Sequence record: PV577657
Reading direction: 5' to 3' (one strand)
From: Escherichia phage vB_EcoS_MM-1
Length of the DNA: 64,000 bases
Shown here: positions 6,026-57,509 of the stretch, piece by piece
Position numbering within the stretch: position 1 is the stretch's first letter
Layout of the letters: each line of letters starts with the position of its first letter
Notes under the pieces: generated by a model
The model's input: only the letters and a program-made list of their open reading frames with translations
Database searches by the model: none
Told to the model about the DNA's origin: nothing
Program-made: the position numbers and the translations under genes

Positions 6026-6805
6026 ATGAGGCTTTATAAACCTGATAATGCCACCGTTTTAAAAGGTGCATTGCGCAACCTGCTGGATGGTAGCAAGTCA
6101 ACCAGCATTAAACATTTTATTAACAAGATTGAAACTATTCATCAAAACTTTTTTGATGATTATGACGCTTATGATATGGATAGTTTTCTACCCTTATATA
6201 GACAAGGGGCAACGCTAGTTTTATATAATCGGGATTGCCATATCTTTACAGGCAGGGGAGCGGGGCCGGATACCGATTTTATTGTTGCGCAGGGTAATAA
6301 TATTGTTGCGTATCATAGCAATTCAGGCCGTCAATCATTTAATATAAATAGTTTTGAGCTTATTGGACTTGATCTGATAAATGGACTTTCTAGCATTGAG
6401 GGATTTTTAGATGTTATCTGGAAGTATTTACCCGCTGGATGGCATAAGCCGGATAACGACGGATCTCAATATACCGGTATAATGGCTTTTGATGGCGACG
6501 GTAATTTTTTGTTACCACGGGAGCTATACCCATATATTTATGATGGGGATATAGAAAGCGCTGGTTTTTCTTTCTGGAAAGATGAAGATCAGATTATTGA
6601 CAGCGTAGAAAACCATGCTGTAAATTCTAACACTCAAAGCGTTAACACTCAAACTACTGAAAACAAAGGAAAAAACACTATGACCAAGATTGCTAACATC
6701 GTTGCCGCTAATAAATCCGCCGTTGTAAATGCTGCAAAACTGGAAGCGGGTAAAATTGCACTGACTCAAATCACGAAAGTAGCGGCTAAAAAGCACCGTT
6801 CATGA
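6026..6805 (+). CDS. hypothetical protein
   Basis: 259 aa; GAGGGAGG RBS 8 nt upstream. Confidence 0.6.
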   Translation: MRLYKPDNATVLKGALRNLLDGSKSTSIKHFINKIETIHQNFFDDYDAYDMDSFLPLYRQGATLVLYNRDCHIFTGRGAGPDTDFIVAQGNNIVAYHSNSGRQSFNINSFELIGLDLINGLSSIEGFLDVIWKYLPAGWHKPDNDGSQYTGIMAFDGDGNFLLPRELYPYIYDGDIESAGFSFWKDEDQIIDSVENHAVNSNTQSVNTQTTENKGKNTMTKIANIVAANKSAVVNAAKLEAGKIALTQITKVAAKKHRS

Positions 6806-7035
6806 TTAAAGGCTATATTGATACGCCGATTGGTCGAGTAGTGATTGCTAACCTGCTAAGTGTAGCGGTTGACCAGTACGCACCGACTAACCAGAAAGCG
6901 AAAGCGGTAGCAGGGGCGGCTATGGAAGCGGCAATGCTGGAAATGGTGCAAAGTTTTAACATCGCTGAAATGATTGATGAAATGGTGAAAGGTATTGATA
7001 TTTCTACTTTTACCACTAGCACCGAAATCGAGTAA
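6802..7035 (+). CDS. hypothetical protein
   Basis: 77 aa; ATGA start/stop overlap with upstream gene. Confidence 0.45.
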   Translation: MIKGYIDTPIGRVVIANLLSVAVDQYAPTNQKAKAVAGAAMEAAMLEMVQSFNIAEMIDEMVKGIDISTFTTSTEIE

Positions 7036-9626: not shown

Positions 9627-9708
9627 TGTGGATAAGTCTGTTAATAACACCCCAAAATGGCTAGGATTCTGTCAAGTCAAATCGTGCTGTTAATAAGTCT
9701 GTGGATAA
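9627..9708. promoter_or_regulatory. two DnaA boxes in direct orientation
   Basis: TGTGGATAA at 9627-9635 and 9700-9708, each beside a ctgttaataa motif. Confidence 0.5.
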
Positions 9709-9941: not shown

Positions 9942-10542
9942 TGTGCAAATCCGACATTGCTCCACGGGTGTTACGTGCGGGCGTGTATGTGCGAATCCGA
10001 CAATTTTTGGTAGTGTGCAAATCCGACCCGAAAAATTTTTATAGTGTGCAAATCCGACAATGAATTTTCCTAAAAACTCCAGCAATCACGAACTGCGTTC
10101 GAATCCTGTGGGGTATGTGCAAATCCGACACGGTTTTTCTAGGATTAAGATGTGCGAATCCGACAAGATTTTTGTGACTTCGATTGGAGGGTGTGTGATT
10201 GTGTGAGTTTGGGGAGAAGTTGAGAGAGCGAGAAAAATTTGAGGGAACTGCGGGAGGGGCGCATGTTTGGTGCGGAGCACCTGATTTGCGGGGATTTTGG
10301 GGAAGAGTTGAGAAGATTTGGGTTAATTTGAGATTAGTGCAGAAAAAGTAAAATTTTATTAGCTAAATGGAGCAAAATAGCTTGACAAGTGAAAATTCTT
10401 GTGGCTCTAAAAACTCAGGCAATCATGGGCCTTCGGCCCGAAATAATGCTGCCATTTTCAGGAGATTATGTGTCCATGAAAACTTAGGCAATTGTGCAAA
10501 TCCGACCAGTTTTTAAACTTATGTCAGTGTGCAAATCCGACA
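9942..10542 (+). repeat. eight direct copies of 15-mer TGTGC(A/G)AATCCGAC(A/C)
   Basis: copies at 9942, 9988, 10014, 10045, 10116, 10151, 10493, 10528; same orientation, irregular spacing, each followed by a T-run. Confidence 0.9.
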
Positions 10543-19077: not shown

Positions 19078-19313
19078 ATAACAGTTAAAATAGTTGTGCC
19101 ATAATCATTAGATAGTTGGAGAGTATAACCCTCTTTATAGAGGGCTTTTATAGCTTCATAACTAATTTCATCACGATTAAACTGTACAAAAGAACCTCCA
19201 ATCTCCACAGAAGAAACTATTCTCTTTTTAACATACTTATATGGTTTCTTTCTGCTATTAAAAAGTGCAGCTCTGTTTATCCTGGCTAAACGTTTTGCTT
19301 GTTCCGCTAACAT
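19068..19313 (-). CDS. hypothetical protein
   Basis: 81 aa. Confidence 0.4.
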   Translation of the reverse strand: MLAEQAKRLARINRAALFNSRKKPYKYVKKRIVSSVEIGGSFVQFNRDEISYEAIKALYKEGYTLQLSNDYGTTILTVIWE

Positions 19314-19370
19314 TTAATCCTCCAATCAATTTATATAAGTATTATACCAAAATTTTTAGCAAAAAGCAAG

Positions 19371-19402
19371 TAAAATAAAAGCCTGATCAGCTAAGATCAG
19401 GC
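19371..19402 (-). terminator. rho-independent terminator
   Basis: gcctgatc / gatcaggc stem, U-run on minus strand. Confidence 0.55.
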
Positions 19403-19410
19403 TTTGTTTA

Positions 19411-19701
19411 TTAGTCCTCTGGATTATCATCCAGGAAATTTTTAATAGCTTCGTGCATAGTTTCTTTACGAAGCTGACGTCCAATCAAAATATGGTTAGC
19501 TTCTACTCGACCATTAGGTAAGCGATCCGCTAGAACTACTACAGGAACTTGGCGTACACCAAATTTCTGCATTAATTCTGTATTATCAGTCTCTTTATGG
19601 ACTTCCAAATTATAGTCATTGACTACTTTATCAAATACTGGCTCAAACATTTTGCAAGGATTGCAAGTAGAACCTTTCAATAGATATACTAATTTACTCA
19701 T
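19411..19701 (-). CDS. thioredoxin/glutaredoxin-like protein
   Basis: 96 aa with CNPC (CxxC) near N-terminus. Confidence 0.5.
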   Translation of the reverse strand: MSKLVYLLKGSTCNPCKMFEPVFDKVVNDYNLEVHKETDNTELMQKFGVRQVPVVVLADRLPNGRVEANHILIGRQLRKETMHEAIKNFLDDNPED

Positions 19702-54364: not shown

Positions 54365-54554
54365 GGGTTTAAACGCCGCTTTGGAAAACGCATTAATGCA
54401 GCACTGGGAAACTGGCTATAAGGATGGTGTTGAATCCTGCGCTACTATGCTAGAAGTTATTGCTAATACCTTAATGGAGAAAGGCAATAAAGAATTAGCT
54501 GAGCTATTAGACAGTATTGGGCAAAACTTCAGAGAACAGGTGAAAAATGCGTAG
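54333..54554 (+). CDS. hypothetical protein
   Basis: 73 aa. Confidence 0.4.
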   Translation: MAFSKPMLPDKGLNAALENALMQHWETGYKDGVESCATMLEVIANTLMEKGNKELAELLDSIGQNFREQVKNA

Positions 54555-55383
54555 ATTAATTATTATTAGCGGTGCAGGTTTGAGTGTTGAAAGTGGTGTA
54601 CGAGCTTTTCGTACTGATACTGCTAGTGGTAAAGCATTGTGGGATGACTATGATCTAGAAGAAGTATGTAATATTCATGCCTTTCGTGGTAATTTTTATC
54701 ATAAAACCCACATGTTTTACAACAAGCGTCGTGAAGAGCTAAAAACTGTTGAACCCAATCTTGCGCATTTGCGTATTGGTGAATGGTATAAACAATATCC
54801 AGGTCAAGTAGTAAACTTGACTACCAACGTTGATGACCTTATTGAGCGTGCTGGCGTCCCACATAGTGACATTCTGCACATTCACGGATATTTAAAAGAG
54901 GTTGTTGTAGCTGATAGCTACAATAGTAGCAATAAACGGATTATTGATGTAGGATACAATTCTATTGATCCAGATGATTATAAATGGGTTAAACCTAATG
55001 TAATCTTCTTTGGAGAGCATGCTCCTGCATACGCAGAAATGTATAATGTTTTTGATGGTATTACCAGTCAAGATATGATCATTGTGGTTGGTTGCTCTAA
55101 CCAAGTAATTAACTTCTACTGGGAATTATTTCCTGTTCTTAATTTGACTGCTGCGAAACTTATGGTTGTTAACTACTATGATAGTGCCCTCGCAGCGGAA
55201 CCGGTCTATCAAGGTATGACTCGTAGTGAGATGTACCAGCTGGAGGAACGCGGTATCCCTTACTGGAGTAAAGGTGCGGTAGATGCTTTCAGTGACCCTG
55301 ATTTTATTGCTCGTGTAGAAGCTCATTTAGAGGGTAGACCTTATGTGTCGAGAAGCAAGAGAAACAGGTATGTCCATAGTTAA
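54547..55383 (+). CDS. Sir2-family (sirtuin-like) protein without Zn-ribbon
   Basis: 'GAGLSVESGVRAFR', 'TTNVDDLIERAG', 'HIHG'; no CxxC...CxxC pair. Confidence 0.65.
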   Translation: MRRLIIISGAGLSVESGVRAFRTDTASGKALWDDYDLEEVCNIHAFRGNFYHKTHMFYNKRREELKTVEPNLAHLRIGEWYKQYPGQVVNLTTNVDDLIERAGVPHSDILHIHGYLKEVVVADSYNSSNKRIIDVGYNSIDPDDYKWVKPNVIFFGEHAPAYAEMYNVFDGITSQDMIIVVGCSNQVINFYWELFPVLNLTAAKLMVVNYYDSALAAEPVYQGMTRSEMYQLEERGIPYWSKGAVDAFSDPDFIARVEAHLEGRPYVSRSKRNRYVHS

Positions 55384-55552
55384 ATCTGTATATACACATC
55401 CCGACGATATATTTGTATGGGCAGATGGTAGTTGGTGCTATCGCTGTGAGCTGTGGGAGATGGACTATAAATCCGATGACTATGGTGTTATATATGTTGA
55501 TACGGTTGAGTATGATACGTTCTTAGAAAGGAACAAAAATGGAAATAAGTAA
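55343..55552 (+). CDS. hypothetical protein
   Basis: 69 aa; start uncertain. Confidence 0.35.
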   Translation: MCREARETGMSIVKSVYTHPDDIFVWADGSWCYRCELWEMDYKSDDYGVIYVDTVEYDTFLERNKNGNK

Positions 55553-56045
55553 TACTCCAATTATTTTTCTAGATATTGATGGGGTGCTCAATTCGAGCAT
55601 CTCCCACCATCATGCACCTGATGACGAAAAGATTTTCTTTGGAAGTGACTGGGTTTTCAAGCCGCTTCTCAAGGCTTTTCAGGACTTTATTCGTCCTTCT
55701 CCAATAATGATTGTTGGAGTATCATCTTGGTTCTCTGTCAGAAATGAGATGGAGAACGTTCAGATTATGACCGGATTAGGTCTTATCGATCGTTTTCTTG
55801 GTACAACGGATTTTACTGGGGGTGGGTTATCTAGGGGTAATTCTGTCCTTCGCTTCGTTGAAAAGCATAAGCTCAAACATTGGTGTGTTCTGGATGACGC
55901 TGGTGCTATGATGTATCAGTATCCAACGGTTATAGTCAACGGTAGAACTGGAATAAATCTTCAAGATTTAATGGCTGTTAGCTATATGTTAGAGTTTAGT
56001 CCAGATCTTGAAATGTGTAAATCCTTACAACAATTTAAGGTGTAA
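55539..56045 (+). CDS. HAD-superfamily hydrolase-like protein
   Basis: motif I 'FLDIDGVLN', later 'VLDDAG'. Confidence 0.5.
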   Translation: MEISNTPIIFLDIDGVLNSSISHHHAPDDEKIFFGSDWVFKPLLKAFQDFIRPSPIMIVGVSSWFSVRNEMENVQIMTGLGLIDRFLGTTDFTGGGLSRGNSVLRFVEKHKLKHWCVLDDAGAMMYQYPTVIVNGRTGINLQDLMAVSYMLEFSPDLEMCKSLQQFKV

Positions 56046-56047
56046 AT

Positions 56048-56476
56048 ATGTTCAATAATGTATTCTCTAAAGAAGCTAACCCAATTTTGGTTAACTTTTG
56101 GCGTACTCTCCCAGCTAGCCTGTATAATGAGGCTATTAACTCCTTGAAAATATGGTGTGAGAATAACGAAATCTCCTTTGCTTTTAAAGATGATATTGAT
56201 GAGGCCCCCTGTATTGGTTTAATTGTGCAGGTAGAGGATGGTCTTGAAGAGATTGTCGGCTGGAAAGAGTTAGATGAAATGGGCTTAATTTTTGCGTTAA
56301 ACTATAAGCTGTTTATGCCTGCTAAGCATCGCCTAGTTGTTAACTATAAAACTAGTGAATCTCCTGGTTTTCAGGTTAATGAACGTTATGGTTGGTCTTA
56401 CTCACCGGAAGAAGTAAATGAGGGGATTCAGAAACTTCGACGTTTCGGGTATATGATCCCAGGTTTAACTGCTTAA
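56048..56476 (+). CDS. hypothetical protein, paralog A
   Basis: 142 aa; shares 'PCIG...GWKELDEMGLIFALN...PGL' pattern with the next gene. Confidence 0.5.
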   Translation: MFNNVFSKEANPILVNFWRTLPASLYNEAINSLKIWCENNEISFAFKDDIDEAPCIGLIVQVEDGLEEIVGWKELDEMGLIFALNYKLFMPAKHRLVVNYKTSESPGFQVNERYGWSYSPEEVNEGIQKLRRFGYMIPGLTA

Positions 56477-56485
56477 GGAGGCAGA

Positions 56486-56877
56486 ATGGAACAAGTATAT
56501 TGGCGTCAGATTGACCCTAGTTTGGTGAAACGTGCGGAGAAGCTGCTACAACGTTGGTTGTGGGTAAGACAAGCCTCCTTCACTTTTCCGAGCAGCAAAC
56601 AGATGATCCCTGTATTGGTGTTTTCCTATCCGGCTACGCCGGGGAATGGGAATTGGATTGGAATGAATTGTCTGCTATGGGTTTAATTGTTGCCCTAAAT
56701 TTCTCTTTGTTCCATCCACGTGGGTTGGCCATACGTCGTGTGCCGGGTGATGGTTGTTCGCCCCATTTTTTACAGGTGGAAGATGATATTTGGGAGTACA
56801 CTCCAGATATTCTCGCAGAAGCTAAAGAACAATTAAATCGTGTTGGGATTTATGTTCCAGGCCTAAATGATGAATGA
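56486..56877 (+). pseudogene. paralog B with an internal frameshift
   Basis: N-terminal homology in the frame starting 56486, remainder in the frame starting 56554; switch near 56555-56575. Confidence 0.4.
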
Positions 56878-57016
56878 TTTTTATTAGCTGAAATTTGTAA
56901 TCCGGGCTATTAGTGCTCGGATTATTACATAATCTTTTCAGTCGATTGACAGTCAAAATAAATTGTCGTTGACAATTTGGATGGATTATGTAATAATATA
57001 TGTATTGGAGGTGAGG

Positions 57017-57469
57017 ATGTCATTCACACAGCAAGAACTTTTAGATAACTTCCGATATGAAGATGGTAAGTTATTTAGAACTACAGGAAGAAATGCAGGG
57101 AAAGAATGTTGTGTTTCTACAGGTAACGGATATTATCGTATATCTCTAGGGAATAGGACTATGCTTCGGCATAGAGCAATATTTTTAATGCATCATGGAT
57201 ACTTACCTGATTTAGTAGATCATGTGAATACTATAAAAGGTGATGATCGTATTGAAAATCTTAGAGAGCAGACAGTATCCGGTAATCTAAGAAATATCAA
57301 ATATAAGAAAGGAATGCATGTTTACCCTTCTGGTAGTAAGAACTGGCAAGTGGTATTTACTATTAACCGTAAACGTATAGTTAAAGGAACATATGACAAC
57401 TATGAGGTTGCATGTTCTATGGCCAAGATGTTTAGAGGTCAATTATACGGTAGGGAATCAATCCAGTAA
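57017..57469 (+). CDS. HNH homing endonuclease
   Basis: 'HHGYLPDLVDHVNTIKGDDRIENL'; GGAGGTGAGG RBS. Confidence 0.55.
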   Translation: MSFTQQELLDNFRYEDGKLFRTTGRNAGKECCVSTGNGYYRISLGNRTMLRHRAIFLMHHGYLPDLVDHVNTIKGDDRIENLREQTVSGNLRNIKYKKGMHVYPSGSKNWQVVFTINRKRIVKGTYDNYEVACSMAKMFRGQLYGRESIQ

Positions 57470-57479
57470 AATTTCATTT

Positions 57480-57509
57480 GCAAGGGAGTATTATTTTATA
57501 GTATAATAT
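57480..57509 (+). promoter_or_regulatory. early-type promoter
   Basis: TTGCAA, 18-bp spacer, TATAAT, then conserved leader without an ORF. Confidence 0.45.

What the first reader, a model, noticed from the sequence alone, without database searches (positions are those of the whole stretch)
56486..56877. Frameshift inside the second copy of a tandem duplicated gene
Paralog B matches paralog A (56048-56476) at its N-terminus in one frame and over the remainder in another frame, with the switch near 56555-56575. This is either a recent pseudogenisation, a sequencing or assembly error, or a recoding event.
Basis: seen in the sequence. Interest (0 to 1): 0.45.

Follow-up and report, generated by a model that had tools for sequence, protein, structure and literature searches.

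The report
One-base deletion breaks a phage gene
In this T5-like phage genome, the second of two neighbouring sister genes of unknown function has lost a single G, which splits it into two reading frames; every other sequenced relative has the gene intact, so this is an ordinary isolate-specific mutation or sequencing slip, not a programmed recoding signal.

Summary
The window is Escherichia phage vB_EcoS_MM-2 (Tequintavirus, T5-like). Gene A (56048-56476) and gene B (56486-56877) are the tandem paralogs T5.106 and T5.107. Each carries two DUF7415 stretches, and they are about 33% identical.

Gene B is frameshifted because one G is missing. Relatives read TTTTCCGGAGCAG; the window reads TTTTCCGAGCAG. 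G56590 therefore serves as both the last base of codon 35 (CCG) and the first base of codon 36 (GAG).

The deletion allele occurs only in MM-2:
- 1 of 154 phage records matching the 70 nt around the site.
- 0 IMG/VR contigs, against 21 with the intact allele.
- Orthologous proteins are 128-136 aa in one frame.

Nothing supports recoding. There is no slippery heptamer, no long homopolymer, no Rfam match, no unusual downstream RNA fold, and no conservation of the two-frame layout.

Reads are needed to tell a real loss-of-function mutation from an assembly error. The rest of the genome is clean, which favours a real mutation. Against that, a second singleton deletion sits at 6792, and the GenBank version differs from the window by one G at 9630. 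Interest is low.

The parts
56048..56476 (+). Gene A, intact 142-aa ortholog of T5.106. It carries two DUF7415 stretches and belongs to phrog_2502.
   Evidence: ORF list. Pfam DUF7415 E = 2.9e-35 with 2 stretches. PHROG 2502. Synteny with AKFV33 orf109, whose note cites T5.106. 98% identical cluster P0022 with 346 members.
56475..56481 (+). Shine-Dalgarno sequence AAGGAGG of gene B, overlapping the stop codon of gene A.
   Evidence: Read directly from the sequence.
56486..56686 (+). Truncated reading frame of gene B (T5.107 ortholog). It has 35 native codons followed by 31 out-of-frame codons and the stop TAA at 56684-56686. GenBank annotates it as CDS0141.
   Evidence: ORF list. GenBank annotation. 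Pfam DUF7415 matches residues 3-35 only, profile positions 1-34 of 53.
56590..56590 (+). Site of the one-base deletion. Relatives have GG (CCG GAG); the window has a single G that is both the third base of CCG (Pro35) and the first base of GAG (Glu36).
   Evidence: DNA alignment with T5_ev212 and AKFV33 and with Kenya-K45. Whole-window blastn gap list. Restoring the G gives a 130-aa protein in one frame.
56590..56877 (+). Remainder of gene B in the -1 frame. It encodes native residues 36-130 plus the stop, including the second DUF7415 stretch.
   Evidence: tblastn of the intact ortholog, residues 28-130 at 56566-56874, 86% identity. Protein alignment with 18 intact orthologs.
56677..56877 (+). 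Internal ATG ORF of 66 aa, annotated in GenBank as CDS0142. Its ATG lies 7 nt before the stop of the truncated frame (ATGGGTTTAA). It has no Shine-Dalgarno sequence.
   Evidence: GenBank table. Upstream sequence. Pfam DUF7415 profile positions 10-52.
56561..56561 (+). Isolate-specific G->T substitution inside a G5 run. It changes Gly26 to Trp, a residue that is Gly in all 18 aligned B orthologs.
   Evidence: Alignments. The T allele is absent from IMG/VR. The best non-self hits differ by one gap plus one mismatch.

Best explanation
Gene B is the MM-2 ortholog of T5.107. T5.107 is a conserved early-region gene of T5-like phages that encodes a 130-aa protein with two DUF7415 stretches and no known function.

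In this isolate one G of a GG dinucleotide has been lost at 56590. A ribosome starting at ATG 56486 reads 35 native codons, then 31 wrong-frame codons, and stops at 56684-56686. The remaining 95 native codons lie in the -1 frame with no ribosome-binding site of their own. The gene is therefore inactivated, or at best expressed as fragments.

This is an unprogrammed, isolate-specific frameshift. My preferred reading is a genuine loss-of-function mutation in a dispensable accessory gene, present in the phage stock grown on E. coli K-12 W3110.

Shown: the deletion, its uniqueness to MM-2, the intactness of the gene everywhere else, and the absence of recoding signals.

Inferred: that the deletion exists in the phage DNA rather than only in the assembly, and that the gene is dispensable.
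For: The deletion is located exactly.

It is unique to MM-2:
- Only MM-2 is at or above 99% identity among 154 records matching the 70 nt around the site. All 59 other listed rows carry one more base than the matched part of the query.
- IMG/VR holds 0 contigs with the deleted allele and 21 with the intact allele.

The gene is strongly conserved and intact elsewhere:
- 520 of 544 phage records have a tblastn place covering at least 80% of the protein, and 59 of 60 sampled rows are one piece.
- 21 protein clusters are 128-136 aa; one of them has 503 members.

The assembly is otherwise clean:
- In a 29.8-kb block 99% identical to T5_ev212 there are only 4 indels, and this is the only one inside a CDS.
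- The remaining 43.8 kb of replication and virion genes has no uncompensated coding indel, including a 20.5-kb block with no gaps at all.
- Random consensus indel errors therefore look rare, and the two frame-breaking singletons both fall in small genes of unknown function, as expected if selection has filtered real mutations.

The same gene carries a second unique change, G26W at an otherwise invariant Gly.

The window is a second version of the sequence. It differs from GenBank PV577658.1 near 9.6-10.1 kb and still carries the deletion.
Against: No reads are available, so an assembly or consensus error cannot be excluded.

- The same genome has a second singleton one-base deletion, A6->A5 at 6792, which splits a DUF7566 gene. 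A homopolymer deletion is the classic form of a sequencing error.
- GenBank version 1 lacks a G at window 9630, again GG->G. The window and its relatives have GG there. This data set has therefore produced at least one discrepancy of exactly this class.
- The argument from relaxed selection fails. Other genomes show similar numbers of lineage-specific non-synonymous changes in gene B.
- With only two events, their location in non-essential genes is weak evidence.
Confidence: 0.52

Rival explanations
1. Sequencing or assembly artefact. The phage really carries CCGGAG and an intact 130-aa gene B, and one G was dropped in the consensus.
For: - The allele is a singleton among 154 relatives.
- It is a one-base deletion in a mononucleotide repeat.
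- A second singleton deletion, A6->A5 at 6792, breaks another conserved gene in the same genome.
- The GenBank record and the window disagree by one G at 9630, GG against G, and relatives agree with the window. This shows that G-count uncertainty exists in this data set.
- Another record with a break in this gene, Kenya-K45, is flagged UNVERIFIED. Its break is an extra G in a G-run.
Against: - The rest of the genome shows no uncompensated coding indels against T5_ev212 over about 74 kb of alignable sequence. The consensus is therefore generally accurate.
- A GG dinucleotide is a short run for a systematic homopolymer error.
- The deletion persists in the window version, in which the 9630 G and a 107-nt repeat stretch are present, unlike the GenBank record.
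- A neighbouring unique substitution, G26W, is not the typical form of an indel-type error.
Confidence: 0.42
2. Programmed recoding. A -1 ribosomal frameshift or transcriptional slippage near 56585-56590 re-reads one base and produces the full-length 130-aa protein from the split gene.
For: - A -1 shift immediately after CCG (56588-56590) would reconstitute the native protein exactly.
- A T4 run (CTTTTC, 56584-56587) lies just upstream, where tRNA-Phe could in principle re-pair one base back.
Against: - No X_XXY_YYZ heptamer lies in the zero frame anywhere in the gene, and the longest run at the site is 4 nt, far too short for transcriptional slippage.
- There is no Rfam family match.
- The 100 nt downstream fold no better than shuffled sequence, z = -0.35.
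- Most important, the split is not conserved. All sampled relatives encode the protein in a single frame, the opposite of what is seen for genuine programmed frameshifts.
Confidence: 0.02
3. Functional split gene. The deletion is real, and the C-terminal 66-aa ORF (56677-56877) is translated by termination-reinitiation at ATGGGTTTAA. It would then act as a stand-alone single-domain DUF7415 protein, like the half-size homologs found in other phages.
For: - The ATG at 56677 lies 7 nt before the stop of the truncated frame.
- Half-size DUF7415 proteins exist naturally. Examples are phrog_3954 (88 aa), the 77-93-aa proteins of Proteus and other phages, and tblastn hits that cover only residues 56-124 in Pectobacterium and Aeromonas phages.
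Against: - The fragment starts at profile position 10 of the domain and so lacks the conserved DWNEL segment.
- There is no Shine-Dalgarno sequence.
- The arrangement is a singleton with no sign of selection for it.
Confidence: 0.04

Closest known systems
T5.106 / T5.107 of bacteriophage T5 (Pfam DUF7415, PF24187; PHROG 2502)
   Same: Position and order match: after the Sir2-like and HAD_SAK_2 genes, and before the replication-origin-binding protein gene. Identity is 92-98% to orthologs. Both genes carry two DUF7415 stretches.
   Different: In MM-2 the T5.107 ortholog lacks one G and is split across two frames. It also carries a unique G26W change. All other sampled genomes except Kenya-K45 have it in one piece.
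Programmed -1 frameshift genes of phages and bacteria (tail chaperone G/GT, dnaX)
   Same: One protein-coding message is spread over the zero and -1 frames, with an overlap zone.
   Different: The slippery heptamer, the stimulatory structure and the conservation of the two-frame layout are all absent here.
Sporadic frameshift breaks in deposited T5-like genomes (for example Kenya-K45, an UNVERIFIED record, and the 74-aa DUF7415 fragment of Salmonella phage SE11)
   Same: These are isolated, record-specific disruptions of the same gene at mononucleotide runs.
   Different: The site and direction differ. Kenya-K45 has an extra G in the G5 run at codon 26, whereas MM-2 has lost a G at codon 35/36.

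Membership tests
Programmed -1 ribosomal frameshift site | Slippery heptamer X_XXY_YYZ in the zero frame at the shift site | tested here: not met
   A scan of all zero-frame codons from 56486 to 56684 found none.
Programmed -1 ribosomal frameshift site | The two-frame architecture is conserved among orthologs | tested here: not met
   Only MM-2 has it among 154 DNA matches. 59 of 60 sampled tblastn rows are a single piece. All 21 ortholog clusters are 128-136 aa in one frame.
Programmed -1 ribosomal frameshift site | A stimulatory RNA structure or a known recoding element downstream | tested here: not met
   MFE -25.7 kcal/mol against a shuffle mean of -24.6, z = -0.35. No Rfam match at E <= 1 other than a chance snoRNA hit elsewhere.
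Programmed -1 ribosomal frameshift site | A trans-frame protein product is made | not testable with these tools
   Needs proteomics or a reporter assay.
Transcriptional slippage site | A long A or T homopolymer (about 8 or more; threshold from general knowledge) at the shift site | tested here: not met
   The longest run near the site is T4 at 56584-56587. The longest in the gene is T6 at 56766, far downstream.
Frameshift pseudogene | An indel whose length is not a multiple of three, relative to intact orthologs, followed by a premature stop | tested here: met
   One-base gap at 56590. Stop at 56684-56686 after 31 out-of-frame codons.
Frameshift pseudogene | The lesion is present in the organism's DNA, not only in the assembly | not testable with these tools
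   No reads are available. Neither the exact truncated product nor gene A's product is in the public assembly collection.
DUF7415 (PF24187) | Score above the Pfam gathering threshold (27 bits) | tested here: met
   Gene A scores 120.7 bits and restored gene B 101.3 bits. The N-terminal fragment scores 33.4 bits and the C-terminal fragment 31.4 bits.
'Exonuclease' and 'tail tube protein' (labels given to these genes in some GenBank records) | Sequence or fold similarity to a nuclease or a tail tube protein | tested here: not met

The most novel reading that the evidence does not exclude
Probability: 0.5. Interest if true: 0.2.

Novelty: already known. Interest (0 to 1): 0.08.

Why it matters
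It matters little. The practical value is for annotation. GenBank CDS0141 and CDS0142 of PV577658 are two pieces of a single T5.107 ortholog. They should be marked as a frameshifted gene or pseudogene, or the base call should be checked.

If the deletion is real, MM-2 is a ready-made natural mutant for asking what the conserved DUF7415 gene pair of T5-like phages does. The result also removes a candidate from any list of phage recoding sites.

Tried and rejected
1. Recoding was rejected. No slippery heptamer or long run, no Rfam element, an ordinary downstream fold, and no conservation.

2. Relaxed selection as proof of a real, older pseudogene. Window-specific changes in gene B are 4 non-synonymous to 1 synonymous, against mostly synonymous changes in the flanking genes. 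Other genomes show the same pattern in gene B, for example T5 itself with 4 non-synonymous and 0 synonymous. Residues 80-95 are also a variable stretch in which no record matches the window better than 96.7%. The argument was dropped.

3. An independent assembly of the same phage. The exact truncated product and the exact gene A product are not in the public gene-position collection.

4. The terminal repeats as an internal control for the 6792 deletion. The left and right terminal repeats are byte-identical in the record, presumably copied, so this is uninformative.

5. Literature. No paper in the library mentions vB_EcoS_MM-2, DUF7415, T5.106 or T5.107.

7. An error-prone assembly. No other uncompensated coding indel was found outside the two singletons. 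The difference at 19197 is T5_ev212's own oddity, because 26 records share the window allele.

Full report
**Source of the window.** Megablast places the window in Escherichia phage vB_EcoS_MM-2 (PV577658.1). This is a Tequintavirus, i.e. T5-like, isolated from sewage in Germany on E. coli K-12 W3110. Window 20109-64000 is identical to record 20001-63892 with no mismatch. The window is still not byte-identical to the record. It has an extra G at 9630 and 107 extra bases at about 9998-10104. It is therefore a second version of the same genome or a sibling isolate.

**Check of the observation.** ORF A (56048-56476, 142 aa) is followed 9 nt later by ATG 56486, which sits behind a strong Shine-Dalgarno sequence. 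The frame of 56486 stops after 66 codons at 56684-56686. The -1 frame is open from about 56521 to 56877.

- Gene A aligns with the first frame over its residues 16-56 and with the second frame over residues 45-140.
- tblastn of the intact T5_ev212 ortholog hits the window in two frames.
- Intact B against A gives 32.8% identity over 125 aa, E = 1.7e-17.
- Both proteins match Pfam DUF7415 with two stretches each, and both match PHROG 2502.

The genes are the orthologs of T5.106 and T5.107 (annotation notes in AKFV33). The tandem paralogs and the frame switch are therefore real.

**Exact lesion.** Aligning the window with T5_ev212 and AKFV33 shows a single gap. Relatives read TTTTCCGGAGCAG and the window reads TTTTCCGAGCAG. 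In relatives the codons are CCG GAG, Pro35 and Glu36. In the window G56590 has to serve as both the last base of CCG and the first base of GAG. Re-inserting one G yields a 130-aa protein in one frame. The Pfam match of the truncated product ends exactly at residue 35.

**How common the allele is.**
- Of 154 phage records matching the 70 nt around the site, only MM-2 itself is at or above 99% identity. All 59 other listed rows carry one more base than the matched part of the query.
- In IMG/VR the deleted allele is found 0 times and the intact allele 21 times.
- By tblastn, 520 of 544 records hold a place covering at least 80% of the restored protein. 59 of 60 rows sampled across the ranking are a single piece.
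- The 21 ortholog clusters are 128-136 aa, and one of them has 503 members.
- The one other two-piece case sampled, Kenya-K45, is an UNVERIFIED record. Its break is at a different place, an extra G in the G5 run at codon 26.

The two-frame layout is therefore a singleton, not a conserved feature.

**Recoding.**
- No X_XXY_YYZ heptamer lies in the zero frame anywhere in the gene.
- The only run at the site is T4.
- No Rfam family matches.
- The 100 nt downstream fold no better than shuffles, z = -0.35.

Together with the lack of conservation, this leaves programmed frameshifting or transcriptional slippage at about 2%.

**Real mutation or assembly error?** This cannot be settled without reads.

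For a real mutation:
- Against T5_ev212, a 29.8-kb block at 99% identity has only four indels, and this is the only one inside a CDS.
- The other 43.8 kb of the genome (replication and virion genes) has no uncompensated coding indel, including a 20.5-kb block with no gaps.
- The consensus is therefore generally accurate, and the two frame-breaking singletons both lie in small genes of unknown function.
- Gene B also carries a unique G26W substitution at a Gly that is invariant in 18 orthologs.
- The deletion is present in both versions of the sequence.

For an error:
- A second singleton deletion, A6->A5 at 6792, splits a DUF7566 gene. All other listed relatives except phiAPCEc03 carry one more base there.
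- The GenBank record lacks one G at window 9630, GG against G, where the window and relatives such as ECOP18 and NG_A1 have GG. This data set has therefore produced a discrepancy of exactly this class.

An attempt to show lineage-specific relaxed selection failed. Other genomes have similar numbers of singleton non-synonymous changes in this fast-evolving gene. I put a genuine mutation at about 0.5-0.55 and an artefact at about 0.4.

**Consequences if real.** The product would be 35 native residues plus 31 out-of-frame residues. The remaining 95 codons have no ribosome-binding site. The internal ATG at 56677 is annotated as a separate CDS in GenBank. It overlaps the upstream stop (ATGGGTTTAA) and could in principle be reached by reinitiation. 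However, it starts at position 10 of the second DUF7415 stretch. Half-size DUF7415 proteins do exist in other phages. A functional fragment is therefore conceivable but unsupported.

**Function of the family.** It is unknown.
- The AlphaFold model of an intact ortholog is confident: pLDDT 91.7, a small alpha/beta protein.
- BFVD returns only DUF7415 relatives.
- The PDB sequence search returns nothing meaningful.
- The library has no paper on these genes.
- The labels 'exonuclease' and 'tail tube protein' in several GenBank records have no support.

**Verdict.** This is an ordinary isolate-specific one-base deletion, or a base-calling slip, in a conserved accessory gene. Interest is low.

Noticed in passing
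window 6792 (ORFs 6026-6805 and 6802-7035): A second singleton frameshift in the same genome. An A6 run is A5 here. This splits a 336-aa DUF7566 gene of the left terminal repeat into 259-aa and 77-aa pieces, at Pfam profile positions 256/260. Only MM-2 has the allele among 114 matching records. All listed relatives except phiAPCEc03 carry one more base there.
   Followed up: yes
window 9630 and 9998-10104: The window is not identical to GenBank PV577658.1. It has an extra G at 9630, giving TGTGGATAA, a DnaA-box-like word (my own knowledge), and relatives agree with the window there. It also has 107 extra bases in a repeat region (TGTGCAAATCCGAC motifs) that looks collapsed in the record. Everything from 20109 onward is identical.
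   Followed up: partly
window 56561: A unique G->T substitution inside a G5 run of gene B changes Gly26 to Trp. This residue is Gly in all 18 aligned orthologs. The change lies 29 nt upstream of the deletion. Kenya-K45 has an extra G in the same run.
   Followed up: partly
window 55539-56045: GenBank labels this CDS 'Sir2 NAD-dependent deacetylase'. Pfam instead gives HAD_SAK_2, the HAD domain of Swiss-Army-Knife RNA repair proteins (E = 4e-20). The true Sir2-like gene is the upstream one, 54547-55383.
   Followed up: partly
window 56893-57501: About 610 nt carrying an HNH_3 endonuclease gene (57017-57469) lie directly downstream of gene B. T5_ev212 has about 100 nt there instead, while AKFV33 has the same endonuclease gene ('putative homing endonuclease') with gene B intact. 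This looks like a mobile homing-endonuclease insertion. No link to the frameshift was found.
   Followed up: partly
window 56587-56591 (relatives: TCCGGA): The lost G destroys a palindromic TCCGGA/CCGG word that is present in relatives. Whether this has any bearing, for example on restriction-site loss or a base-calling context, was not examined.
   Followed up: no
L004 (T5_ev212) 19366-19530 / window ~19197: T5_ev212 itself lacks one base here relative to the window. 26 other records are 100% identical to the window, so the odd one out at this site is T5_ev212, not MM-2.
   Followed up: yes
gene B homologs in other phages (rows H164-H175): Klebsiella T5-like phages have only one DUF7415 gene rather than the pair. 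Pectobacterium My1, Aeromonas, Proteus and Morganella phages carry half-size (about 65-93 aa) single-domain versions that match only the C-terminal half.
   Followed up: no
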